Assembly (NCBI GenBank): GCA_028534125.1
Contig: CM052816.1
Location: forward strand, 90,956,001-91,020,000
DNA length: 64,000 nucleotides
Source: Lama glama
Lineage: Eukaryota
Direction of reading: 5' to 3'
The translations under genes were made by a program, and so were the position numbers. Position 1 is the stretch's first letter, and every line of letters begins with the position of its first letter. Shown here in pieces: positions 2,521 through 43,600 of the stretch. The notes below the pieces were generated by a model that was given only the letters and a program-made list of their open reading frames with translations, did not search any database and was not told the DNA's origin.

Positions 2521-2544
2521 TGTTTACTGAGTTGTTATGGCAAC
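2521..2544. promoter_or_regulatory. Forkhead motif TGTTTAC next to X-box-like GTTGTTATGGCAAC
   Basis: TGTTTAC at 2521-2527; X-box at 2531-2544 with an intact ATGGCAAC half. Confidence 0.4.
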
Positions 2545-5429
2545 TATTCAGGCGCGCTATGCAAAGACCGGGATAAATAGCCGTAAATGAAGCTGGGTTT
2601 AAGGCAGGGGGGTGGTGTTCTCAGGGTGGACTTTCCAGGGTCACAATGAAATTGCTTGGCTTTGTCCTGGCGTGGTTTTTTTTTCTTTTTAATATTAGTC
2701 ATCTTTTAAAATTCAGCGTCTTGGGACATTTCAAATGGCTTCCCACTTTTGCTGGCACATGTAAGGTGCTTTCTTTGCTCCTGCAGTCAGAAGTATCTTC
2801 AGCAATTGCCATCCCGCCAGCCTCGCCAGGCTGGACTTCCTTTCAGTAGAATCAGGAATGAATTAGGGAAGCAGAGCCCAAGACACCACATAAAAGACCG
2901 GGAACACCAGCAAGCCAAAGAAAGCCCGTTTTTGTGTCTGTCAGCTCAGATGCTTCTGGCCCGGACTGCTAAAGATGCAGCCATTTACAGTGGACAAAAA
3001 CTGAAGGGGGGAAAAGAAACCCAAGGTAGGGATTTTTCTCTTATTTGCACTGCTTAAAAGTTTCATGTACCTCACAATGATTGCAGTAATGTAAAATTTG
3101 GCAGAGGAGTTTTTTAAACCTGAGAAAAACAGCTTTTGCCGTCTCTCTGAGCAGCAGAAGTGTTTCGTTTCTGAACAAATGGGTAAGTGCTGATTTTAAT
3201 TGCGTGTCCACGTTTGAACTGCTAATACTTTGTAAGAACAAAGGCTGTAACCGCTTGGATAAGGCGTTGATAATGCAATGTTATTTTTGGTGTGGAATTC
3301 ATCTTTTATAGGAAAAAGCATTTTTAATATTAGGTTGCAGTGGGAAATGGTGAGAGGTGGTTTCCTTTGTTTGAATTTATGTCAAAGAATTCTTCTTTAA
3401 AAGCTTCCGTGCTACAGTGTTGCAGCTTTTTCTTTGCCTTGTACTTTGTTTATATGAACCTTTACGGAAATCGGCACAAGAATCAGCATCTTTTTAAGCT
3501 GCATTGTGAACTGGTTTGTGCACAAGTATGGAAGTGGGGGAAATTACAGGAGTTGAATGGTCACCTGTGGAATATCATGTGCTAGTTTCACACAAGCGTG
3601 AACCTGCCAATATTTTACAGTCTGCCTGGAGAAACCTGATGAGGCACTTTTTTGCTGAGGTTCCCCAGAGCAGAAGTCCCCAAAGAAAGAATAAGACTGT
3701 CTGATATGCTAATCTCTGCCTCAGCCTCCGCTTGAATGTGTTCAGCTGATGGCTATTCAGTTGCTAAAAGTGCCCTTTAAGGGAATAAGTGTTTTAAATG
3801 TGAAGGCGGTCTTTCATATTAAATTGAGTTACATTTAAAAGAAACAGAATAATAATGTGGCTGACTGCCACTTAGCTAAATCTGTTTTCAGAGCAATAAA
3901 AACGCATGTTAGAACATTTTATTTTTACCATCAGTTTTTTTTTTCAGTCTTAGGGGTAATTAAGCTGACATAAAATTAATAACCGTCAAAAGAGAAAAAT
4001 GGAGTATGAGTCATCTTCGGGAAAGTGCCTGACATTTCTGTCTCTTTCATGGTGTTAAAATCCTGGATTTTCTCACCTGTATTTCTGTCCTTAAATATAT
4101 GGACCCCTAGTTCCAGAAGCCTGTTGTTATTTGCAGGGAGGGAACACTCACTCTCTGATGAGTAGAGTTTCACTCTCCCTGATGAGTACCATGGTTGTGG
4201 GGGAGGGCACATTCGCTTACTTCCCACCTGCGGGGTGCCATCTGCCAAGATGGGTAGACATTTGCCCCTGTGCCCAGAGTGGCCTATAGCCACAGCTCTG
4301 TCGCCGCAGCCCTCCTGCTGTGCAGTTTTACTTCGGCCAGTCTCGATGAACTTCTTCAGTAGCATCCAATCAGAAAGCTGCCCAGTCCAACGTTTGAGCC
4401 AGTCCCAGACCACCCATCAGCAATATGCAGACTATAATTGTGTATGTGTGTGTGCGCGCGCGCACTTGTGGGTTCTAGCCTGAGCGGCTCTGCATTAACA
4501 TTTTCACAGGCAGCCCTCTTAACGTGTGATGTCTGTTAGTGACTTTGTTGTAAAACTCACCATCGCTCACCCAGCATCTGTACAAAGGACTAATTATAAA
4601 AGCCATTGTTACCCTCAATGACTCCGGAGCAAAAGGTCTGGGTTCTGGAGACTAAAAAGTGGGAACTGGTGCTGGATTGCAGTGTGGTGCTTGGGTTCAG
4701 AGTCTGACCGTCCCTGGGTTTTCTCACAGCCCTGGAGGAAGCTGCTCTGCCTCCTTAGCATTTCCCTGTGTTGGCCTTTCACCCTGGGCAGTTCCCCTTC
4801 TCCTTCCTCAGGCCAGCTCTGTCCCTGACACTGCTCACTGTAGTAGTATTTTTCAGTAACTATAATAAAAACATATCGCAGTAGTTACTAGGTTTCGCCT
4901 GCACCCCTCCCCAATGTAAAGGCAATACTTACTGATTATAAAGTATTTGGAAAATATGCAAAATACCAAAAAAATTACAATTTTAAATTACAGCTACCTA
5001 TATTTTTACCACCTAGAGACAGTCCTGTTTACATTTTGTTGCATATATACTCTTTTCTCTAAGGTGGGCTCATAGTCTACCTCAATTAAGTAACTCACTT
5101 TTTTATTAATTTAATATATCTTAGAACATTCCTGTGCTTTCTTCGTGACGGTACAGAATTGTCAGTGGCTGTGGTGTCAGATTTCTATTATTGGATGATT
5201 TCCTTTATTTGTTGTTGTAAACAATGCCCCTTGCTGTATTATTCATATGTGTAGACACTTGTGCTCATTTAAGACTGTTTCCTTGAGGTAAATTCTCGGA
5301 AGTTTATTTGCTGAATCAAAGTGTGCACATTGTTATGACTTTGTGTACCCGTACATGTGGCCAACTTGCCCTTCAATGTGGCCAACTTTGCCCTTCAATA
5401 AGGCCAACAATAACACGAAAAGTTTTTGT

Positions 5430-6999: not shown

Positions 7000-7200
7000 G
7001 AGTGTCTCAACCTTGGCACCTCTGACATTTGGGACAGGACAGTTCTTCACTGTGGGGCACAGTCCCATGCATTATAGGATGTTTGGCAACAGCCCTGCCT
7101 TCTACCCGGAGATGCCAGGAACAGCCCCTCTCCCCCGGTGTTTACAGACACCACCCACTGCCCCTCAGAGGGCAGAATTGCCCCTGGTTGAAAACCACTG
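7000..7200. mobile_element. MER20-like hAT DNA transposon
   Basis: Ends gtgtctcaacc ... ggttgaaaaccactg; internal cattataggatgtttggcaacagccctg resembles MER20. Confidence 0.75.
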
Positions 7201-10200
7201 GCTTAAGGTATCCATGCCGATTATTTCTTTGGTTTTATCCTTATTTTTCCTTTGCTCTTGATAAAAATGGCATCTACGGACGATGTAAGTTGTATCACAG
7301 CACTTGTTCCGGCTTTGAACCCTGTTGGCGCTGTTGCATAGATGGTGAAAATTGTATCATTTAACGTTTTTCAGAGGTATTGAGTCATTGAGTTAAACAT
7401 GCATTACTGTTTTCTTTCCTAGTAAATAGTACTAGAAAATTTGAAATTGGGGGGCCTGAGGGGGCACCCTGAATATCAGCGTGCCTTGCAGGATTACGTA
7501 ATCACTCCGTGCGATCCACTTTCTCAGATGAATGGCTGCCCTAGTTTCCGCCCCTCTGCAAGGATAAAGCAGCTCATTAAAGTGTGCCAGATGCCTCGTT
7601 TGTCAGTATTTCTTTTAAAAGGAAATACTGTTCAGCTTTGGAACTCTGTGACAGACTCAGCTTGCCTTTATGAAATGAAAGCGTCCCCACTAAAAAACAT
7701 GGCAGTATCTTCCCCTCTTGCTCCTCTCCACACTCACAGTGGTGAAAATCTCACCAGCAAACAAATGTTTTAGTTACTGTTTCATGACGCCTTTCAGAAA
7801 GTGTCCTTACATACAGGAAAATGAAGTGTGACTGTGCGCCATCAGTTGGGTTACTGAGATTTCAGCCTTCGAGTTTTAGGCACAGGATGAAGGGTTTGAA
7901 AAGGAAGTCTTTCAGGCAGACCCTGGTGTCGTTTTCGATGGGACAGTTTAATCAGGTTGTGGAGATATGTAAGTAGAAGACCAAGACGAGTTTTGCTGGG
8001 CAGGAGAAGCAAACCCCCGCCAGTGACTCGAGCCAAATGTAAAGCATCTTTGATATGTTGATTGTGGCTTGAGCAATTGCAGAAAGAAAATTAGCCTGGC
8101 TTGGCGTCTTCTCTTTCTTTCTCTTTAACTTCTTCTTTTCCTTTTGTTTGTGTTGGTATTAACTCTGAAATGTTGGCCTCTGTATTTGATTCAGTGACTT
8201 CATGGCATCAGTTCCAGTGAAGCTGAGACTGTTCGGTTTACACTGAGCTGAGGGCATACGGAATGAAAGCCTGTAGAGCCTTTTAGTCAGAGGCACCTTG
8301 CAAATTAGGGAAATGAGGTCCTGTGTGCAGGTGGAAGGGCAGGTTGGACCTGGTTGTGATGTCATGTGATACGGATTTCCAGGGTTCAGACAGACACAGC
8401 CTAGCCTGTTAATGCTGGTGGGGGGCAAATAATCAAAGGTGCAGAAAGGTACCCAAACCACACATTTCAGTGGAACTGACCATCCCATAGACCAGCCATC
8501 GTCTGTGGCCCGGTTGCATCAGCAAATGGGCCACTTCTGCTCAGGAGCGCCTGCTGTCCAGAGCCGTGCTGGAGGCATTTCCTGGTTTACACAAACTTGG
8601 GGCTCTGCCAATGTCGACAGAGTTAAAGCCTTTCCCTTCTCATGCTCTATTAAAAAAGAAAAATTAACTACAATACAATTGCCACTTGTTCTCCATTACT
8701 CACCTTTGCCTGCTCAGCGCACATCCACTCTCCTTGTTACAACACGTCGATCTAAAGTCCATAAATGATTGAGAAAGTGGTTTGGGAATATTCGAAGGGT
8801 TTTTAGCAATCGGCCCGGGTGCACAGGCTTTTCTGTTCTTTGTCCTGCTTTGGTGAACTGGTTGAAAACATAGATTGCACTCCATCGAGGGCTGTGGGGA
8901 CCATCACCCGCCAAGGATGCAGAGCCTTGAGGTGGTGCAGGTAGAGGATAGACCTGACTGCTTGGCGTACAGGGACAGATGGAGCAACACTCTTCAGTGG
9001 AATATTAACCATAGTGAGGCCTGGGTGCAGAAATGTAGGAAGGTATGCAGAAATGGAGAGAGCACTTCTGAATCATTTCCATTTCGGTTACTAAATCATG
9101 GCCTGGCCTCAGATCACAGTTGACGATGCCAAAACATTGATGGGGGGATATGTGGATTTAGACCCGGGAAGCTTTTTGAGAGCATTCACCAGCGTCTGAC
9201 GTACCATAGCAGTGCTTCTAAACAACACTGGCCTGGACCCATGGTCTCGTGGCCCAAATCACCAAATTTCACCTCTAATTCAAACCTTACCCCATCCAGC
9301 CCAGTCACTCTGTAGCAGTCAGTTAACCTTTTTCTACATGTTCCAGGGCTAATGGCATAAGACTTTCACAGTTCTCAAGGGACAAGTTGATTTTGTTGCC
9401 ATTTGCTAGTGAAGAAGGGAATCTGTCCTTCAGGCACGGTAAAATAAACAGGATTGTGAAACAGGTTCCCCTTTCAGCATGTCTGGATTAAAATGATGAG
9501 CGAAGATGTTATCAGGAGGCTGTGTATCATGGTGGACTGAGCGAAGTTTTATAAGAAATGCTGGACTCACTGCCTCTCACCAGCCACGTGATGTTGGTCT
9601 GTCAAGTTCTCTCATTTGATGGAGTGAGGATAGAAGTCACCATTTTTAGGGTGATTACAAGGTTAACCGTGACCCAGCCTGCAAAACTCCCAGCTCAGAC
9701 CCTGGCACGCACTGGCCACTGATGGTCGTGGTGGCTGATGAGTAATACTGATCATATTTATGAGTCTGGAAAGAGGCAGTATGTGTGTGTTGGTGGAGCC
9801 CTCTGACACGGCTCTCCCAGCACAAAGAGGTGTTCATTTCCTCTCGTGACTCATCTTTTGAACTTACCACTTACTCAACTCAGTAGCACGTCCTCAGAAT
9901 TTACAAAGGACCTGCATCCACCTGGGGGAAGATGTGTGGAAAGACAAATTCGTGGGAAAAGTATTGTCATAATCCTGAAAACTGCTCTTTAATCCAAGAG
10001 TGAACAACGTGGTCAGTGTTAAGTGAAGCAAGTAGGATCACTAAAGGAAGTGCCTGAAACATGTTGTTCTAAGGACGGATGAGGAGAAAAAGTGTTCTGT
10101 GGTCGTACATACGCTTTCTGTTTCCTATGTATTTCTTGGATTTGGGGTCATGTTCTCATTGGGCCCTTTCGCCAGGCTGCCGGAAAAGAGGAGCATCCAG

Positions 10201-13755: not shown

Positions 13756-15725
13756 CAAAATGTTTGGAGTGTGTCTTGTGTACAGTTCGGAGAACTTTTA
13801 ACAGATGCGATATCAGATTTTCTGAATAGGCACTTTATGCTTGTAACAGGTTTCAGGAAGGATTTCGATAAATAAACATTCCTTATCTGTTGAGCCTGAT
13901 TTGATGTTAAACAACAGAAAGGGAAGTAAGTTGAGTACTTCGTGCAAAATTAATAATGTTGTAAGAACAGTAGATTTGTATACCCATGGTTGTCAAGAAA
14001 TTTCTCATAAGCATTACCCAAAATTGACATTGGTACCTTCTAGAGCAGCTCTTCTCAAAATACATGTGGCAAAAGAGAAGTTCTTTGCTTTATTGCCAAT
14101 TCTTTGTGGAGTGGTACTTTTGAAAAACAGAATAAAAATGATGTGGCCATGTCATATTACTGTTAAAGTTCCTAAATGCTTACTCTCACTATCGGTGTCC
14201 ATCGCATCATGGACTGGCGCCTGTCACAAGCTGCATTTGGAGTCACATGCTCCTGGTTTTCCTACAAGACGGAAGAGCACAGAATCTAGACATAGGTCCT
14301 AGTGTGTGCCAGTCACGTGACCTAGGACCCGGCGCTCAAGTTGTATCCGATTCACGTCCTCTGTGTGTGTCATGGAATAATCTTCCTGGCTGGCCCACTT
14401 GCTTTAATAGGAGTTCTTTGAGATTTAATTAAGGTGATGAAAGTCCCTTGCAGAGAATCACCCATATTTAAATATTAGATACCATTATTTGTCGCTTCGC
14501 TTTTAATTCAGGAAGGAAACCATTGCTTCCTTTCAGTGTTGAGAATTAAATGCCAGCTCCACTTTTTTAGCCAACCAGGGGTCCCTTGTTGCAGGAACAC
14601 TCTGCCTTCTGTCTTCCCCAGGTGAGTAGCAGGGGGCGACCAAGGGAAAGCACCAGGTGCCTGGTCCCCAAGGGGGCCTGATGTACAGGTGCAAAGACCA
14701 GTCACTTTCTGTAGGGTTTCCTGGCCCAGGGGAGGCAGAGTGGGGGTGTCTGCCTCTGTTGTAGGCAGGAGAGGAGGCGGAACCCCAGCAGTGAGCAGTG
14801 TTCTGCACGCACAGCGGGCCAACGAGGGGAAGAGCCGCCAGAGCAGCAGGTGCGAGGGCCCTTGTTCAAAGCAGGAAACCGGAAAGGAATAAGAATGGAA
14901 GAAAGAAGCCATGGAGGAGGGGGGCTTGTATTCTTCTAACTCAAGGAAGCATTCGACCAAACGTTAAATACATGTGGTTTTCAGGCCATTGGTGGGGTTT
15001 GGAAACAAGTATGTGACGCGGTCACAAGGGCGGCTAAGACTCAAAAGAGGAAACGTCGTGCGGACCCAGTTAAAGGCAAAGTGCCTCGACTGAACTTGGG
15101 GAGCTGTTAGCTGTAGCCTTTCTAAGCGTTCACTTGCCAGGCTTGGGGGGAAACGGATGAGGATGTGTGTGTTCCCATTTTGGCCTGTTGAGTCTAACTT
15201 GATTACACATTCCCCCAATGGTGCTCTATTTCATCATTACTTTAGGTGCTGAAGATGCTGGGTGCAATGGCTTGTTAAAAGTAAAACAAATTCAGTGTCC
15301 TCGGAATCTTCTGGAGTGACTTTGGAAACGAAACAGGTTTATTAGGCAAATGAAATTACCATATTTTGAGAGTCATCAGGTGGCTGTTTCATCCTTTATT
15401 TGAAGTTAATGGAAATTCTTCACATCTAATTTTTTTGGTTAGAGTCATGGGCCTCATGAAAACTATTCATGAGGTCTCTTCTGTTTCACATTATTTGTGT
15501 GAGGATTGGGTTTCATATTTGAATAACGGATAATGTGTTCAATGAGAAGTAATGTTTGTGATTTGTCCCTAGGTAAGCCTTGTATTTAAATAGTCTGACA
15601 GTTCATTTGTATAAAAGATGCTCCGAGTATCAAACAAATGCAAGTAGAAAGGTAATGTTAAGCTTTGTTGTTCTTTCACTCTCCGAGTCCTTGCAGAGCC
15701 AGAGGTTCAGCCTAGTTTATTAGAG

Positions 15726-20130: not shown

Positions 20131-21646
20131 CATGGCCAGACAAGTCCATTGAAACAACTGTAAACAGAATCACGCTTTTATTTACACAGTACAGTCGGTT
20201 ATGTGGGTACGTATCTGAGGTTCAAGTCCAGTGGTCGGCAATTTAGTGAGAAATTCTTAAGATTCAGCTCCTGCCCTGAAGAAATTTATACTCTAATGAG
20301 GGATTCACATGGATGTGTCTGGTGGATATAAAAAAAAAATACATGCCAAGAGGAAGAGCATGGTCAAGATCAGATGGTACCAGTTGGATGCATCTGGAAC
20401 AGTTTTATTGGGGAGGGAGTATTTGAGAGACCCCGACAAGATCCATGGAACTCAGCATTTAAAAGATAGTGGGTGAGCATTTCAGGTGGAAAAGCTGGCT
20501 TCAGCTGAGAGGTAAAACAGGAGGTGGAGGTTTTAGTCAACAGCTGGACTTACCTCTAATTTGACTTAGATGTAGAGTACGTTGTGGGGGTGTATTGACT
20601 GGGAAGGTAGGTTGGAGCGTATTGTGAGGGCCTCGAATGTGAAATGGAAGCCTTTGTCTTAATTTGGCGTGTATTGGGAGTCTGTGAACAGGGCTATGAT
20701 ACGGCGAAGGCTGTGCCTTGGAAGGATTTCATGTGCACATGTCTAACCAGTTATGTTCAGAGTTTTCCTTTCTTGTGAAGTTGTTAGGGTTTGTGTGGAT
20801 CTGAGGTGAGCACTGCAGTTTCCACCTGTAGCAGAGCTTGGATTTCCTTGCTTTTTGATCCTGCTCAGCCGGGAGTGGGGTGGTTTGAAGGCTGTACTTG
20901 GTGAGTGAGAAAGTTCCACATTCCTATGATCAGACCCCCAGGACAGTGACAGCTTTGGCCAATCACATAACCACGTTGCTCCAGTTCCTCACCTGGGACG
21001 GGGTTGCCTCTTCTCCTGGGGAAATGTGTTTGTGCCTCTTTTCTCAAAATGTGAAACTTAGCAAGTAGCGACAATTGTGCCAAATGTTGACCAGCCCGGG
21101 AGTGAAATGACTGAGGTAAGTACAAAGAACCTTTGTCGATAGTTTAATTGGCTTTTATTTACTTTCCGTTTGAGGTCAGTCAAGGTCTGTTGCTGCTTTA
21201 GTAACCATGCTTTTGAAAACTGTTCAAAGCATCAGAAAACTGTCTGATACTTATTTAACTGCTTTTGAGAAGCTGATGCAGCAAAGACAGCAAATAAAGA
21301 TTCAGAGTCCTCATGTCTTAATTTTTTCATTAATTACTAAGAGGTCAGGACAAGAGTCCTGTCAGCATAGGGCCGCGAATGATATGTTTTTAGTGGAACA
21401 TTGTCGACTTTTGGTAAACTCATCTGTAATTTTTTGCCACTTAAATTTGATGAAGGGTTATCAAGCTGTTTAAAATTTGTTTGCTTGTTTGTATTTAAAG
21501 GTTGAATTAGGGTAAAGATATGTCCCATAATCATAATGCAAATACAGATATACCTAATATATCAGATTCTCTCTGTAATGCTAGTAGCTCTCCCATTTCA
21601 AAATGTTTACTTGTCAAAATGAAGACTCATGTGATGGTTTTACCCC

Positions 21647-22146
21647 NNNNNNNNNNNNNNNNNNNNNNNNNNNNNNNNNNNNNNNNNNNNNNNNNNNNNN
21701 NNNNNNNNNNNNNNNNNNNNNNNNNNNNNNNNNNNNNNNNNNNNNNNNNNNNNNNNNNNNNNNNNNNNNNNNNNNNNNNNNNNNNNNNNNNNNNNNNNNN
21801 NNNNNNNNNNNNNNNNNNNNNNNNNNNNNNNNNNNNNNNNNNNNNNNNNNNNNNNNNNNNNNNNNNNNNNNNNNNNNNNNNNNNNNNNNNNNNNNNNNNN
21901 NNNNNNNNNNNNNNNNNNNNNNNNNNNNNNNNNNNNNNNNNNNNNNNNNNNNNNNNNNNNNNNNNNNNNNNNNNNNNNNNNNNNNNNNNNNNNNNNNNNN
22001 NNNNNNNNNNNNNNNNNNNNNNNNNNNNNNNNNNNNNNNNNNNNNNNNNNNNNNNNNNNNNNNNNNNNNNNNNNNNNNNNNNNNNNNNNNNNNNNNNNNN
22101 NNNNNNNNNNNNNNNNNNNNNNNNNNNNNNNNNNNNNNNNNNNNNN
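21647..22146. other. Assembly gap (500 N)
   Basis: N run. Confidence 1.
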
Positions 22147-25951: not shown

Positions 25952-26597
25952 AGGGGGTTGAGTTCAGACAGAGAAGAATCCATCCCTCCCCACTTTTTTT
26001 TTTTTTTTTTTGCCCTGGATGTGAATCACAAGATCTTGGCACCTAGTAGGTGTTCAATAATTTAAAATTCAGTAACTGGATAAAGACCAGACTCCTGAAA
26101 CTATAAGTGCCCCGGTTTATGGCTGTTTCTTCCAAAATCCACCTATCTGTCAGCCATCAGAATTTCACTGTTTGACACTGCAGGCAGTCTTTGAAGGGGG
26201 AGCTCCAGTTCTGGAAAACTGGTCACCGGTGGAGACTGGAGTGCATGAGGGAAGTTTAAAAGGCCACATGCCTTTAAGTTGTGACTGGTCCAGCCTCCAG
26301 CTGTGTCATCTGTGAACATTAAATTCACCCAGAAGAAAAGGAAGTTGAAACTAAAAAGAGCCCCACCAATGGAAATACAGGACTCCTCCCTTGTGATCGC
26401 CCTGTGCGTTGCCCAAGGCGACAATCTGCCTATAGATCCCCCTTCCCCTGGTTAAATTTCTGTGAAGGGGCAGAAACACAGTCACAATGGGAGCCTGGAA
26501 AGAGTGGCCACTCCTGGCGGCTCCCTCCCTCCCTCCCCTCCCGGGCTGTATGAAATCCTACAACCACACCACACTAATTAGCCCGAGAATGGAAGGG

Positions 26598-26611
26598 GTT
26601 GCCATGGCGAC
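26598..26611. promoter_or_regulatory. RFX X-box motif GTTGCCATGGCGAC
   Basis: 13/14 match to the palindrome GTTGCCATGGCAAC; a second X-box-like GTTGCCCAAGGCGAC at 26408-26422. Confidence 0.5.
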
Positions 26612-28169
26612 CGAGCACTTTTTAAAGCACAGGAATGGTGTTCATTATTGTTCAGTGTCTTTAGCTGTGGCGAAAGGTCAGGGTGGCAGTTGCTTTCCAT
26701 ATGAATTTTGGCCTGAGAGCCAAACCGAAGGTGGAATGTTCCTCGGAGGGACTGGAGATGGTAAGTGCGGCCGAACTTTTTGGAGGGGGTGTCCCTTTCG
26801 TAATATTTTTTTAGGGTGTTTTAATAACCAGTGCCAAGCTAAGGAATTGTGCAAACTTTGTTAAATAGAGACTGGAAGAAAAGGAGCAGGGGAAAACAGC
26901 AGGGGTCAGGAATGGTGAACGTTTGAGAGACTTGGAGAGGTTTTTTGCTTTATTTAAAAGGTCTTTGAGCATCAGATGATGAGACGTGAAATGCGTTAAG
27001 TTTCTCTGATTATGAATTTAACAACATTAACTAAGTCTGATGCTTAATTCCCTATTTCTTTTATATTCTCTCTCTACTAGTCTTTTGTGGGTTGCTGTAG
27101 TTCAGATTATATTCCCAAATAAATCTAACAGTAGCATTTTAACCAAATACCTTCAGAACAGTTGCTTCTGTTTTCTTTTTTTTAATCCAAAGATAAGATA
27201 GAAGAGTAACCAAGGCTAATTTTTCCATACTTTTCTGTTTTTCTTTCTTGTCCAAGGAGATTTGAAATAATCAAGACTAGAAACCAGTGAGCCACAATTC
27301 TTCGGCTATTTGCCCTAATGTATTGGCTACATTCGGGGTGGTATACTGCTGAGCAGAGACAGTTTGACCACAGTGTTTCATAGGAGAAATCAAATATGAG
27401 AGAAGTCGTCCTGCTGGAGATGGTGGTAGCTCTTCCATCAAACATTGTGAGGGAGATTTATAGAGTGTTCTTCAAATTCATCTTTTGCTTCAAGAAAAAA
27501 AAAAGTGCAGAATAACGTGGCTTTCAGCTTGCTTTTGTGTTAATGACTGTGTTTTTAAGGCTCTCAAATTTAAACTACGTTTTAAAAATGTACTTATGTC
27601 CTAGGGCGCTGTTTTTCAGTTGTTTTATACACAGTTGTGTAGGATCATAAAATACAAATTAACTAAAGAGAATGGGGTGTTCAGATTGAAAAAACACAGA
27701 TCACTGCTCAAGAAGCCACAAGTGGGAAATGACCTACTTTGGGGCTTTACTCCGAAAAGACTCTTGTCCTGTTAGTAATGCCAGTTTGTTTGGCAACTGA
27801 ACAGAGAAAGAATACGTTTCAGAATGTTAAGTCTTGGTTTGATTTCCTCTGGCTTGCATTTGTATATTCTGGGATTGATTGATTTCATGATCAGAGTATG
27901 GAGCAAATTTCTGGAAATCGGGAAAATTAAAATTCTTTTTCATTTTTGTCTCTTTTCTCCACTTGCAAGCTCTCCTCCTCTCCCCACCCCACCCCCACCC
28001 CTGGCGCAGAACCCCTCCCCCAGCTCTCACTGGGTCACTGCATTCTTCAGCTAAAAAAAATGCCTGGAAATTGAAGTTTAAAAAGTAAATAAGGTGATAT
28101 TTGTATGACATTTCAGATTCTTTGGAAAACATAGCATTACAAGTGATGGTTCATTTATGATATTTGTAA

Positions 28170-28445
28170 AATAGTCAGAAAGTTGAACCTGGCTATTAAT
28201 AGCAAGGAATTATTGGTGTCTTATAAGATATGATAATAGTGTTGTGGTTATATTAAAAAAATGATTCTGATATGTTTATGAATGAGATGGTGTGATATCT
28301 GGGACTTCTCTCAAAAAAATCCAGGGGCAGGAAACAAGTGGGCTTGAGGATGGAGCAGGATTGTTGCTGGTTGTTGAAGCCAGGCTATGGGTACACAGGA
28401 TGAGGTTGGTTTTCTATTCTGTATTTGTGTGTAGGTTCAAAACGT
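28170..28445 (+). mobile_element. L1ME-like 3' fragment just upstream of exon 20
   Basis: atgataatagtgttgtggttatatt...atatgtttatgaatgagatggtgtgatatctggga. Confidence 0.5.
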
Positions 28446-28513
28446 GTGTGTGTGTAAAACAGTGGTAAGGGTGTCCTGTTAACCTTGTCTTCTCACCTCT
28501 TGGCGTGTTTCAG

Positions 28514-28638
28514 ATGCCCGACCAGTTTGACCAGGCGGTCGTGGTCAACCAGCTGCGGTACTCGGGGATGCTGGAGACGGTGAGAATCCGGAAAGCGGGG
28601 TATGCGGTCCGGAGACCCTTTCAGGATTTTTACAAAAG
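28514..28638 (+). CDS. MYO10: MYO10 exon 20 (human numbering): motor SH2/SH1 helix, [42 protein letters not shown]
   Basis: tttcag|ATG acceptor; 125 nt; ends AAAAG|gcaaga (GC donor); myosin motif [18 protein letters not shown]. Confidence 0.95.
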
Positions 28639-31600
28639 GCAAGATGGAGCTGCATAGGCCTTCTTCCATTGCAAAGGGATCGGGGAAGGAATTGTGGCAA
28701 AAGGTGACGCCGGGCGTCCTTCTGTTGCAGGTATAAGGTGCTGACGAGGAGTGTGGCCCTGCCCGAGGACGTCAGGGGGAAGTGCACGGCCCTTCTGCAG
28801 CTCTATGACTCCTCCAACAGCGAGTGGCAGCTGGGGAAGACGAAGGTACAATTTTAGAGAAAGAACAAGTGTGCTGTCAAGTTCCCTGGGAGACAGTAGA
28901 GTTGAGTGTTCTGTGATCACTGCCCACCAGTTGTTAACATTGAGAAGATGCTTGTGGTGTCGTGACCACCATAATCCTTTGTCCTCCCAACAGTTAATGT
29001 TTTATTTGAAGTCCTTGACTCTTGAGGATTCTGCTTTCTTGGGGACAGAGGAAGCATGGGATCCCAAGTGCTTCATTCAGTCAATCAACAGATCGTTGGC
29101 TGATGGGTGGCTCAGTGCCTTGGGGGAGCTGGGCAGCCTCTGGAATCTGAGAAGTGAGACCCCAGACCTTTTACATTATTCAAGTGCTGCATGTTGTCCC
29201 TGCATCTCTGTACTGAGTAGAAGACTAGCAAGTAGTCTGAAATCCTATAGGTTGCCCAAAGTCCAGTCCAGAAAGCCAAGTGGAAATCCAGCGTTTGAAC
29301 ATGCCGCTGTGACTGAGGCCTTGACCCCTTAGTTAAATGGTGGCATCAACAGCAAAATTATCAGTAAAATTGGCCATATGATCTCTTCTCCCTACATCAG
29401 GAGCTGCCAAAATCCTCATCTGGGGTTCCACACTTGTTTCCACAGCCACCTCCAGTGTCTTATCACACAGGAGAGGCAGAAAGGCAGGCAGCTGGGGGGT
29501 TGGCCTGTGAGTGTACAGATGTCGTTGAAAGTAAGAGATGTTCCTTGTGCCTCTTCCCCCTGACCCTACAAGTAGCAATGCAGCATCAGAGAAGTAGCTT
29601 AAAGTTTCTGCTCAAGTTATGTTGTTTTTAACCAAGGAGTTTCTTTGGTTGAAATAAAGAAAGAGAGAGAGAGAGAGAAAAGGAAGGAAGGAAGAAAGGA
29701 AGGAAGGAAGGAGCGAGTAATGGAGGGAAGGAGAAAGACTCGTAACTGGCAGTCGGAGTGTCTTCATTGTAGAGCTGCTCTGATAAAATGCCACAGACTG
29801 GGTGGCTGAAACACAGAAGTTTATTTCTCTGGTCTCTCTTCCTCCTCTTATAGGGGCACTAATCCCATTGTGGGGCCCCACCTTCCTGACCACATCTAAA
29901 CCTAATTACTTCCTAAAGGCCCCACTTCCAAATACCATCAGATCGGAGGTTAGGGCTGCAGCATAAGAAAGGGGGAGGAGGGGCAAAACATTCAGTCCAT
30001 AACATTGGTGTGTGATCAGTGACAAGTATTGAGGCATCATCTGGGGGCCACTCAGCAAGAGAGGGTATATGATGGACGTACTTTTCTGCTCTTGAAGGAT
30101 TCCATCTGGCCAGGGATTTGATATATGAATGTCTAATAGGGTAGAGATGGCTTGCAGAGCTATTGTATTAGTTATCTATTGCTGTGTAACAAACAACCAT
30201 GAACTTTGCGGCCTTAAGGGTACATGTTAATTATCTCATAGTGTCTATGGGTCGGGGGTCCAGGCACAGCTTAGCTGGTCCCCCACAGTCTCCAGAGCCT
30301 GGCAATCAGTGTCAGCCAGGGCTGCATTCCCTCCTGGAGCTCTGGCTTCTCCTCCAGGCTCGTGTGGCTCCAGAATCCAGTTTTTTGTAGTTGTAGGACT
30401 GAGGTCCCTGTTTTCTTGCTGACTGCCTTTCGCAGCTTCTAGAGACCACTCTCCACTACACTCCTTACCACATGACTCCCTCCCGGGTCCTCCCACAACA
30501 TGGCAGTTCACTTCTGCAATGTCAGCAGGAGAATCTCTTGCTCCAGTCTCCTAAGGTGGAGTCTTGTGTAATGTCACATATTCACAGAAGTGACAGCTCA
30601 TCGCCTTTGCCGTGATCTGAGGCCAAGAAGGAACTCATAGGTTCAGCCCACATTAGTAGGTTAAACAAGGGTGGAACCCACTGGGGGTCACCTCGGGCTG
30701 TGTCCTCACAGGTTTATAGGCCTCTCAACCTGGAATTCTCCCCGCTCCTAGTTTAGCCAACTCATCCTTCAGGTCTCTGCTTAGATATAAACTGTGACAG
30801 GAATCCTTTTTGACATACTGCATTGCACCCCACACCCAAAAACTCACCCCCACACTGGGTTAAGCCTCCTCCTCTGTCATCTCTATTTTCCTATTTTCCA
30901 CCCATTGTAACACTTAACACTCTGTCCTGCCATCTTGGCATCTCCTGGTGACTTGTCTACAGTCGCCCCATAGAAAATGTGGAGTTAACTGTTGGTTCTT
31001 CTACACAAGTGCACATAGGAGCTCAGTCTTCTACACAGTGCACATAGTGGAGCTCAGTCTTCTACACAGTGCACATAGTAGGAGCTTAGTCTTCTACGCA
31101 GTGCACATAGTAGGAGCCCAATCAATGTCTGCTAAGTGCTAAAAAAAACTGTAAGGGGATGGCACAAGATCATTGTTTAGTCACTCAAGGGAAACTGTCT
31201 AAAGAAGTTGGCTCAAGTGGAGTTCTAGGCAGTATAATACAGGCTGCTCTGATTTTTTTTAATTGAAAAGATACTGCATTCTCTGTAAACTGACAGTCTC
31301 CTTCTGTCTCACTGCCTTACACAGTGGAGTAACATCAGAGATCGTTACGACTCACCCAGCCAACAACCAGTCTCTTTGCTGAGCTCTGAAGAATCAATCC
31401 AACTTTACTTACAATTTACATTATGGAAATCGGGCCCCAGCAAGGCTTGAAACTGGGTGTGGCACAGGGGGATACAGAGACATAAACATGTGGGGATTGT
31501 CCTCGGTTTACTCAGTTCCTGGGAGATAAGATATCCCGGACACCAGATAAATTATACAGTGTAATCTCTTGAAGGAGTAAGGACACAGGTTCTCAGGAGA

Positions 31601-40600: not shown

Positions 40601-43600
40601 CCTGTGTCTTTGAAACAGCTGTGAATAACCTTTATCATTTAAAGGCAATAAGTTAATAGGATAACTTTGTACTACGGTTTCCTCTTGGCTAGCTCTGAGT
40701 AGCCTAGATTAAAGCCACAAATCAAAAAGGGGAAAAATAAGTCTCATGCCGGTAGTCCCTGGCAAAGTTTGCTGTTTGCTAGGAAACAGCTCTGGCGCTT
40801 GGCGTGACCACAAAGACCTCTCTGCTAGGTGAGCAGGAAGTGCTGTAGATACAAGAAAGGGTAGGAGTCAGCTTAAGTCAATGAAACAAGTGCGCCCTGC
40901 AGTGCAGGCTTCTTTTGTTCCCATATGAAGTGTAGATCTATAATAATCATTGAAGCATCATTGAAAAAACTAATCTGAGAAGGTCTGTTTTACCTTTATT
41001 TCTATTCTGTCAAAGGAAAGCATTTTCTTTATACTCACTTTTGATATCCACGTTTAAATGTCCTTTATTTTTATTACTGGCTGATCAAAAGAATAACTTG
41101 TGGACAGAGATGGCAGTGTTTTTCAGTGGATTCATTAAAACAGATTTTTGAGTGATGGTGGTAAGATGTTACTCCTGAGTGTTCTTGGGGAATCTAGAAT
41201 ACTAAAGTAAAATTATCCTGCTGGAAGAGTATTAGAAATATTTTTTTATGTTGTAATAAATAACATCTGTATACCTTCCTCTTGACCAAAGTTTTCCACT
41301 ACATAAATTAGTTAAATTCTCCTTTTTTAAGGTCCTATGCCAGTTTGGTTTGGACTCTTACTTTGTTCCATATTCTAAATTTTATACCTTACATATATAA
41401 ACCATTTTCAGATGATGATGCTTTTCTTTGAAAAGGNNNNNNNNNNNNNNNNNNNNNNNNNNNNNNNNNNNNNNNNNNNNNNNNNNNNNNNNNNNNNNNN
41501 NNNNNNNNNNNNNNNNNNNNNNNNNNNNNNNNNNNNCATGAAATGGTTCAACCCGTGCCTCCCCCTCCCCCCCCCCCCCGCCTTGCCTCATCCCGGGGCT
41601 AGAGTATCAGCCCATTATTGGTCTTTCTGCTTTCAGCTAAGTGAGTAGAGGTTGCTTTGGAAATAAGGGTTCTTGGGTAATCCAGCCAAGCCAGTGTGAT
41701 CCCTGCCCAGCGCTTCCTGAACGCAAGCCAGCAGGGCCGTCATCCGTCGCTAGGGGGCGTCTGAGGGCGGGTCGGTTGGGGCAAAGTTGAGGATGGGCTC
41801 CATCTTGACACCTCCCACTGGTATCATCCAATTTGACGGGCTTTTCTTAAACCCCTCCCTGCCCAACTCTGGGAGCAGGTGGCCTGATGAACTCCTGGAA
41901 ACGCCGCTGGTGTGTCCTCAAGGACGAAACCTTCCTGTGGTTCCGCTCCAAGCAGGAGGCCCTCAAGCAAGGCTGGCTGCACAAGAAGGGCGGCGGCTCC
42001 TCCACACTGTCGCGGAGGAACTGGAAGAAGCGCTGGTTCGTCCTCCGCCAGGCCAAGCTGATGTACTTCGAGAACGACAGCGAGGAGAAGCTCAAGGGCA
42101 CCGTGGAGGTCCGGGCGGCCAAGTACGTCCACGAGCCCTGGTCGGGGTGCTGGCGGGGCTCGGGGCTGCCCCAGCCTTTCTGTCCTCGCGTGCACGCAGT
42201 TGGGGGCAAGTGCTTGGAAGCAGGAGAAGGGAGGAGGTGTTCAGTGAGTCCGCCTCACGCGCTTCTGCGGCTTGAATTACGAGGAAGCTGGGGAAGTGAG
42301 ACTGCATCTGTGAAAATGCACTTTTTTGTGGTTAACGCAGACATTCTGCTCGTGTTTGTAAGGGGCTAGTTGGACACAGAATGAGCCCTTGAAAGTGCTG
42401 ATTGGCTGGGAATTGTGGCGGGGATATTGAGCGTGGGTTGAGCACCTTCTTGTGGGTCAACTACCACTTTCAGTTCTTCCCCACGCCCCACTGTGGCCAA
42501 CAGATAGATGGCTGGACTGGGAGCAGCCAGCCAGTCTAGAGCTGCATTGTGAAGTGAGTCATTTGTCGTCCACCTGAGTTTGATAGACCAACCTCTCTGT
42601 ACCCATCAGAGGAGCAGAGCTGGTGTCTGAATCCAACCCACCCCCTTTTCCTGCCACCTTCTTCTACAACCAAAGCATTGAACTATGGAGTCCTGTTATT
42701 TTTATTAAAAATTCAGTAAGGTTTTCAGAAAATACTGAGAATTTCGGGGCAGCTGGTTTTCTTCGGTAACCAGATACTAAGCATAAAATTTGCGTGGGGA
42801 TAACACATAGCCCCACTCCACTCAAACTGAACAACTATACCTATTTAGAAAACAGGTTAAAAAAATCAGCTTTGAGAGAGCACATTAACCCCTGAAGTCG
42901 TGAGACCTGAGAGTGACATATTGTTTCTTACTCAGCTGGCATCAAAGACTTTAGAAAGTGATTCATTGAAAAGTGGAGGGTGAAATCAGGGGGGAAAGTC
43001 TTCTGTGTGTTTAATTTTAAGGACAAATAATGAAGTGTCAACAGCAGGGTCCTTTCCCAGGCTGCCCCTTGGGGTTCCTTAGAGACCTTCTTCTGTAGGA
43101 AGATAAGACTGAGGATTTGAATCTGAGTCCTACACCTTATTTTTGTTTGTTAGTTGATTGGTTTTTAATTTATTGGAGTATAGTCAGTTACAATCTGTCA
43201 ATTTCTGGTGTACAGCATGTTTTAGTCATACATATACATACATATATTTGTTTCCATATTCTTTTTCATTATAGGTTGCTACAAGATATTGAATCTAGTT
43301 CCCTGTGCTATACAGAAGAAATTTGGGGTTTTTTTAAATGTATTTTATATATAGTAGTTAATATTAGCAATTCTTGAACTCCCAGTTTATCCCTTCCCAC
43401 CCCCTTTACCCCTGTTAACCATAGATTTGTTTCCTATGTCTGTGAATCTGGTTCTGTTTTGTATATAAGTTTGTTAGTGTCATCTTTTTTCTTTTTTTTC
43501 CTGGATTCCACATGAGTGATATCATGTGGTATTTTTCTTTCTCTTTCTGGCTTACTTCACTTAGAATGACAATCTTCACATCCATCCATGTTGCTGCAAA

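What the first reader, a model, noticed from the sequence alone, without database searches (positions are those of the whole stretch)
26400..26766. Candidate RFX-driven first exon of headless MYO10 with an in-frame 20-aa N-terminal extension
Seen: a repeat-free block 1.75 kb upstream of exon 20 has two X-box-like sites (26408-26422, 26598-26611) and ends in a strong donor, GAGATG|GTAAGT (26760/26761). An ATG at 26701, after an in-frame TAG at 26662-26664, opens MNFGLRAKPKVECSSEGLEM, which ends exactly at the donor in phase 0 and would join MPDQFDQ in frame. Known: headless Myo10 transcripts start within this intron and are enriched in brain; RFX factors are active in neural and ciliated cells. 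Inference: this is an internal promoter, and the isoform may have its own N-terminus. The 26701 ATG has weak context (C at -3) and out-of-frame ATGs lie at 26604 and 26736.
Basis: partly seen in the sequence, partly recalled or inferred. Interest (0 to 1): 0.7.

Follow-up and report, generated by a model that had tools for sequence, protein, structure and literature searches.

The report
Likely RFX promoter of headless MYO10
This stretch of a mammalian myosin-10 gene holds two RFX-type binding motifs and a splice donor, and is likely the counterpart of an already annotated mouse start exon for the motor-less 'headless' protein; RFX factors likely bind it, while the proposed 20-residue extension is probably incidental.

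Summary
Both X-boxes, the donor and the open 20-codon frame lie where stated, and the X-boxes are the only two strict matches in 64 kb.

The exon is very likely not new. A mouse headless Myo10 transcript starting ~29.5 kb into intron 19 is described as adding 'a single M' before M644 (PMC5725431), which fits an exon ending ATG|GT. Eight rodent annotations start MM-P.

The RFX link gains outside support. Mouse ependymal ChIP-seq (PMC7498320, Table S8) lists RFX1 peaks whose spacing matches the three published headless start sites within 264 bp (415 of 200,000 random trials). The peak matching this exon is also bound by RFX2 and RFX3. Binding is inferred from spacing; driving is unshown, and Myo10 is absent from that paper's Rfx-knockout DE table.

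The extension is poorly supported. It is in frame in 3 of 4 relatives and frameshifted in one. It is 75-85% identical, about like read-through of the flanking intron, versus 39-41 of 41 for exon 20. Rodent models lack it, and its ATG is weak.

No read or TSS evidence was obtained for this species.

The parts
26408..26422 (.). X-box 1 (imperfect palindrome, one base longer than X-box 2)
   Evidence: sequence
26598..26611 (.). X-box 2, one mismatch from the recalled canonical RFX palindrome and the best site in the window. It contains an out-of-frame ATG (26604) in strong context, which argues that the start site lies downstream of it
   Evidence: start-site position inferred
26620..26760 (+). 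Inferred alternative first exon of headless MYO10. The 5' end is unknown (a TATA-like TTTAAA lies at 26621); the 3' end is fixed by the donor
   Evidence: orthology to mouse XM_006520024.3 as described in PMC5725431; seal gene model P0109 joins the same exon to exon 20; motif
26701..26760 (+). Open 20-codon frame MNFGLRAKPKVECSSEGLEM with a weak start (C at -3, A at +4); its ATG is the last half of a CATATG palindrome (26698-26703)
   Evidence: relatives
26736..26738 (+). Out-of-frame ATG (G at -3) opening a 13-codon uORF that would end at 28528, overlapping the M644 start after splicing
26758..26760 (+). Exon-terminal in-frame ATG (G at -3); gives the MM-PDQF start seen in 8 rodent annotations
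26761..28513 (+). Inferred intron, GTAAGT...TTTCAG, 1,753 nt
28514..28638 (+). MYO10 exon 20 (starts at M644; ends at a GC donor)

Best explanation
This is likely the most downstream internal promoter and first exon of headless MYO10, likely bound by RFX1/2/3 at its two X-boxes, and predicted to yield mainly protein starting at the exon's last codon or at M644 rather than a 20-residue-longer form. Shown here: the motifs, donor and frames. Shown in mouse by others: a headless transcript of this type (an NCBI prediction, cited in print) and RFX peaks in Myo10 intron regions. Inferred: RFX dimers on the X-boxes help start transcription just downstream of 26611. The short exon is spliced 26760 to 28514. 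Scanning ribosomes mostly pass the weak ATG at 26701, some are lost to the out-of-frame ATG at 26736, and most start at 26758 or 28514. The product is the motor-less Myo10 tail, described as a dominant negative or scaffold. The 20-codon frame is a by-product of a conserved regulatory exon.
For: 1) PMC5725431 introduction: mouse headless starts lie ~8.6, ~13.9 and ~29.5 kb into intron 19, and the last adds a single M before aa 644. In 1-28513 only two ATG|GTRAG sites exist, and 26758 is the only ATG|GTAAGT.
2) Of 66 held proteins (out of 322) whose M644 motif lies in the first 80 residues, 8 start MM, all rodent models.
3) The donor-flanking sequence is conserved: seal model P0109 ends the same peptide in M and joins exon 20. 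Unnamed contig ORFs P0241 and P0242 read M-V-S across the donor.
4) PMC7498320 Table S8: RFX1 peaks at +130,289, +135,809 and +151,453 from the Myo10 TSS fit the three starts with a spread of 264 bp; an equal or better fit arose in 415 of 200,000 random trials. RFX2 (+151,459) and RFX3 (+151,550) share the last peak.
5) The implied start of intron 19 (+121.85 kb), added to a recalled mm10 Myo10 TSS near chr15:25,622,500, falls ~0.5 kb inside the exon-19 deletion that begins at 25,743,874.
6) The extension shows 15, 16, 17 and 17 of 20 identity. Flanks read as protein show 13/17 and 6/14 downstream and 7/9, 7/9 and 3/6 upstream; exon 20 shows 39-41 of 41 in 10 of 11 placentals.
Against: No junction, CAGE or expression data for this species: no reads could be laid, and no genome is held.
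Orthology with the mouse exon rests on the ATG|GT ending and position; no mouse DNA was aligned.
The peak-to-TSS match is post hoc, uses distances rounded to 0.1 kb and one recalled coordinate, and a 60-kb range that I chose.
Myo10 appears in the held part of the PMC7498320 supplement only in Table S8 (7 of 7 hits), not in the Rfx-knockout DE table S1; the file was cut in storage. Gene-level counts could hide a promoter-specific change.
No non-rodent MM-start annotation was seen, though cluster lists show at most 15 members (of up to 834).
The extension's ATG and frame are intact in 3 of 4 relatives.
Confidence: 0.72

Rival explanations
1. One reading: the same promoter, but the ATG at 26701 is a real, selected start and gives a headless isoform with its own 20-residue N-terminus in this lineage.
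For: The frame is open from ATG to donor in the window, seal P0109, P0241 and P0242, each exactly 20 codons. An independent gene model (KAF3828798.1) chose this start. If transcription begins after 26654 it would be the first ATG met.
Against: P0243 reads ...SLE-DGKCS, the donor sequence in a shifted frame, i.e. one extra base before the last ATG (single unnamed contig, could be an assembly error). Eight rodent models start MM. Identity is about that of the flanks, with radical changes (K/E, G/R, P/L/Q). The start context is weak. Only 1 of 401 long hits (best 120 listed) and 0 of 30 short hits carry the peptide. The search that found the relatives favours open frames. The seal model is computational and matches exon 20 at only 30 of 41. 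F-H-M is kept in 3 of 3 relatives with upstream sequence, so the ATG may be held as part of a CATATG E-box (bHLH preference recalled, untested).
Confidence: 0.1
2. The exon is real but RFX occupancy is incidental or only modulatory; other factors (for example neural bHLH proteins) drive it.
For: Myo10 is not among differentially expressed genes in Rfx-knockout ependymal cells in the held supplement text. RFX1 and RFX3 have 7,440 and 9,318 peaks, many without effect on expression. This overlaps with the best explanation, which claims binding more firmly than driving.
Against: Two near-consensus X-boxes lie 190 bp apart, and RFX peaks recur at the spacing of all three mouse starts; all three factors bind two of them.
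Confidence: 0.3
3. The block is an intronic RFX enhancer with a fortuitous donor, and is not used as a first exon in this species.
For: No transcript evidence was obtained here. No CpG island.
Against: The donor context is kept in 4 of 4 relatives and matches the mouse and rodent MM-start models.
Confidence: 0.1

Closest known systems
Mouse headless Myo10 transcript XM_006520024.3 (start ~29.5 kb into intron 19; PMC5725431, PMC6041326)
   Same: First exon within intron 19, spliced to exon 20, ending in an in-frame ATG that adds one Met before M644.
   Different: Here an upstream in-frame ATG (26701) could add 19 more residues; rodent models do not show it. Use in this species is untested.
X-box promoters bound by RFX1/2/3 (PMC5838959, PMC7498320)
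   Same: Imperfect inverted-repeat motif within 500 bp of an inferred start site; closely spaced double sites are described at a minority of co-occupied promoters.
   Different: The target is an internal promoter of an actin motor gene, not a ciliary gene. No paper linking RFX to headless Myo10 was found; the link sits only in a supplementary table.
Other headless Myo10 first exons (mouse ~8.6 and ~13.9 kb; NM_001353141.1, NM_001353142.1)
   Same: Same intron, same downstream protein.
   Different: Those are 5' UTR only. Their likely counterparts lie elsewhere (candidate at window 2531-3182).

Membership tests
Headless MYO10 alternative first exons | Lies in intron 19 of MYO10, upstream of the M644 exon | tested here: met
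   Exon 20 identified by 113 hits, nearly all MYO10; exon-19 motifs absent from 1-28513
Headless MYO10 alternative first exons | Conserved splice donor compatible with the exon 20 acceptor | tested here: met
   conservation seen through protein read-through in 4 relatives, not by DNA alignment
Headless MYO10 alternative first exons | Spliced transcripts joining the exon to exon 20 in this species | tested here: inconclusive
   no reads could be laid
Headless MYO10 alternative first exons | Capped 5' ends (own TSS) | not testable with these tools
   no CAGE or 5' RACE data available
RFX target (X-box) promoters | X-box motif near the start site | tested here: met
   consensus recalled, TSS inferred
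RFX target (X-box) promoters | RFX occupancy in vivo | tested here: inconclusive
   mouse RFX1/2/3 peaks at +151.45 to +151.55 kb match by spacing; no absolute peak coordinates or sequence seen; no data for this species
RFX target (X-box) promoters | Expression falls on RFX loss | tested here: inconclusive
   Myo10 not found in the gene-level DE table of PMC7498320; promoter-level data not available
Conserved coding N-terminal extensions | Frame kept across orthologues | tested here: not met
   frameshift in 1 of 4 relatives; absent from 8 of 8 rodent MM models
Conserved coding N-terminal extensions | Protein-level constraint above flanking non-coding DNA | tested here: not met
   75-85% versus 76-78% in the best-aligned flanks (43-50% in P0242) and 95-100% in exon 20; small sample, no codon-level test
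Conserved coding N-terminal extensions | Initiation or peptide evidence | not testable with these tools
   needs Ribo-seq or MS

The most novel reading that the evidence does not exclude
RFX1-3 are the dedicated switch for headless MYO10. X-boxes at each intron-19 promoter turn on the motor-less, filopodia-antagonising isoform in neural and ciliated cells (about 0.45 for this part alone). In addition, this promoter makes a 20-residue-longer isoform with its own behaviour in some non-rodent mammals. The probability given is for both together.
Probability: 0.07. Interest if true: 0.55.

Novelty: new member of a known kind. Interest (0 to 1): 0.3.

Why it matters
I found no paper naming what switches on headless Myo10 in brain (the key J Cell Sci, JBC and promoter papers are not held). 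If RFX factors do so through X-boxes at its internal promoters, the neural and ciliogenic RFX programme would directly control a natural antagonist of filopodial Myo10. That can be tested with existing Rfx-knockout RNA-seq by counting first-exon junctions. Mice that lose one upstream headless 5' exon keep normal brain headless protein (PMC6345916), so a downstream promoter such as this one may matter. The exon itself is already annotated, which caps the interest.

Tried and rejected
Read evidence: 24 runs were listed, but none could be laid. Their word shares are not used as evidence.

Own genome: none held, so exon 19 and the intron length could not be seen.

Mammalian orthologous DNA: the metagenome scan gave 15 loci, none with DNA similarity to this block (best match a 29-base low-complexity hit), and the closest was only 88% identical over exon 20.

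Extension in annotated proteins: only P0109 among the hits and the cluster members. P0122 (1,438 aa) looked like a candidate by length but starts in exon 19.

Absolute RFX peak coordinates: not in the held text of the PMC7498320 supplement (cut in storage). Myo10 was not found in the supplements of PMC5838959 (5 files) or PMC4498915 (4 files). A coordinate search found nothing relevant.

Raines 2012 (PMC3408153) is not held. PMC7439406, PMC4539528 and PMC8902710 gave nothing on this exon.

Earlier scan findings: none.

Rejected: CpG-island promoter; the 3183 donor as source of the MM start, since its ATG is one base out of phase.

No folding was attempted, because a 20-residue peptide would not be informative.

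Full report
Observation. The window holds the 3' part of a mammalian MYO10 gene. Exon 20 (28514-28638) translates as MPDQFDQ..., and its 113 protein hits are nearly all myosin-X. Exon 19 is not in the window. Every coordinate in the finding is right. With a recalled X-box consensus, 26408-26422 and 26598-26611 are the only two strict matches in 64 kb; a pair within 250 bp arose in 0 of 200 window shuffles and two sites in 0 of 5,000 local shuffles (pattern chosen after seeing the sites). The donor is good but not rare: 4th of 1,738 GT sites on a recalled matrix, one of 8 GTAAGT in 1-28513. The block is not a CpG island.

The exon is probably already known. PMC5725431 (passages) states that mouse headless Myo10 starts ~8.6 kb into intron 19. 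NCBI predicts two more starts at ~13.9 and ~29.5 kb, and the last 'adds a single M preceding aa 644-2062'. That requires an exon ending in an in-frame ATG at a donor. In 1-28513 only 3347 and 26758 read ATG|GTRAG, and only 26758 has the full GTAAGT. Of 322 proteins held, 66 have the M644 motif within their first 80 residues: 33 start at it, 8 start MM (all rodent models: Nannospalax, Arvicanthis, Perognathus, Jaculus, Peromyscus, Meriones, Alexandromys, Ictidomys), 1 carries the extension and 24 have other leaders, mostly intron read-through. Orthology is inferred from this ending and from position; I could not align mouse DNA.

RFX. PMC7498320 (passages, supplement rows and contents list) is ChIP-seq for RFX1, 2 and 3 in mouse ependymal cells. 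Its Table S8 assigns Myo10 five RFX1 peaks (+104,465, +110,725, +130,289, +135,809, +151,453), two RFX2 peaks (+130,236, +151,459) and three RFX3 peaks (+110,619, +130,293, +151,550). The last three RFX1 peaks fit the three published start sites with one offset, spread 264 bp. The next-best triple spreads 4,924 bp, and 415 of 200,000 random sets of five peaks in 60 kb did as well. The implied start of intron 19, +121.85 kb, added to a recalled mm10 TSS near 25,622,500, lands about 0.5 kb inside the deletion that removes exon 19 (25,743,874-25,753,469; PMC6041326 passages). So RFX1, 2 and 3 likely occupy the mouse counterpart of this block. The window shows the same pattern: a second strong X-box (2531-2544) with a downstream GTAAGT donor (3183) lies 24.1 kb upstream, where mouse has its other triple-bound peak 21.2 kb upstream. 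Against 'driven': all 7 Myo10 hits in the held supplement are in Table S8, none in the knockout DE table S1. The file was cut in storage, and gene-level counts would be dominated by full-length transcripts. I found no paper stating an RFX-headless Myo10 link, but subscription papers on headless Myo10 are not held, and unseen supplements may bear on this.

The extension. A full scan with the 49-residue frame 26665-26811 returned 3 relatives, all ORF calls on unnamed genomic contigs, and the exon-20 search gave a seal gene model (P0109). Three of the four keep 20 codons from MNF to the last M (15, 16 and 17 of 20 identical). The fourth, P0243, reads SLE-DGKCS, which is the donor sequence shifted by one base, so its MNF start is out of frame with exon 20 (one contig, error not excluded). 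The same ORFs read on into the intron and back into the leader at 13 of 17 and 7 of 9 (P0241), 7 of 9 (P0243) and 6 of 14 and 3 of 6 (P0242). Exon 20 is 39-41 of 41 identical in 10 of 11 placental proteins, the exception being the imperfect seal model at 30 of 41. The peptide is thus conserved roughly as a conserved non-coding block would be, not as MYO10 coding sequence is. The search also favours open frames. No other annotated protein carried it (cluster lists are partial). The ATG has C at -3 and A at +4; it is followed by an out-of-frame ATG with G at -3 whose 13-codon frame would overlap M644, then by 26758 (G at -3) and 28514 (A at -3 after splicing). F-H-M is kept in all three relatives with upstream sequence, so the ATG may persist as half of a CATATG E-box (recalled motif, untested).

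Mechanism, with status. Shown: motifs, donor, frames, donor-flank conservation. Reported in mouse: a predicted MM-start headless transcript, and RFX peaks. Inferred: RFX binds the X-boxes and helps start transcription just downstream of 26611. RFX peaks centre just upstream of start sites, and an earlier start would include four out-of-frame ATGs, three in strong context. A ~100-140-nt exon then splices to exon 20, and leaky scanning gives mostly MM-PDQF or M-PDQF headless Myo10, described as a dominant negative or scaffold. In tm2 mice, which by PMC6345916 lose the 5' UTR of one upstream headless transcript, brain headless protein is unchanged (section read); PMC6041326 says the first exons are intact, so the two papers disagree. 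A downstream promoter could therefore carry much of the expression.

What is missing. No reads could be laid and no genome is held, so transcription of this exon in this species is untested. The metagenome scan found no mammalian locus.

Verdict. A real and conserved element, most likely the orthologue of an annotated headless Myo10 first exon (about 0.88). RFX occupancy is likely (about 0.8), RFX dependence is open (about 0.45), and a functional 20-residue extension is unlikely (about 0.1). The new content is the RFX link, assembled from a published supplement. Interest 0.3.

Noticed in passing
window 21107-21121: ATG ACT GAG|GTAAGT: an M-T-E leader ending in phase 0 at a strong donor (3rd of 1,738), 7.4 kb upstream of exon 20. 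It matches annotated headless starts MTD-MPDQF (Urocitellus XP_026249413.2, P0249) and MTN-MP (Cavia XP_023419523.1, P0303). Likely a further headless first exon, not among the three described in PMC5725431. No strong X-box nearby.
   Followed up: partly
window 2531-3188: Strong X-box GTTGTTATGGCAAC (2531-2544) with donors at 3026 and 3183 downstream, 24.1 kb upstream of X-box 2. Likely counterpart of the mouse headless start at the +130.3 kb RFX1/2/3 peak.
   Followed up: partly
window 28636-28731: Exon 20 ends at a GC donor (AAAG|GCAAG); the 92-nt GC-AG intron leads to exon 21.
   Followed up: no
window 7078-7090 and 7285-7290: A weaker X-box-like site 4.5 kb after 2531, with a GTAAGT at 7285. 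Could correspond to the weak mouse RFX1 peak and middle start site; not tested.
   Followed up: no
window 14101-15200: The most CpG-rich 300-bp stretch of the intron (15 CpG, o/e 0.77, at 14801), near a top-scoring donor at 14622. Could be a young repeat or another element.
   Followed up: no
window 21647-22146 and 41437-41536: Assembly gaps (500 and 100 N).
   Followed up: no
mouse Myo10, PMC7498320 Table S8: A further RFX1+RFX3 peak at about +110.7 kb, upstream of intron 19 by the inferred offset; outside this window.
   Followed up: no
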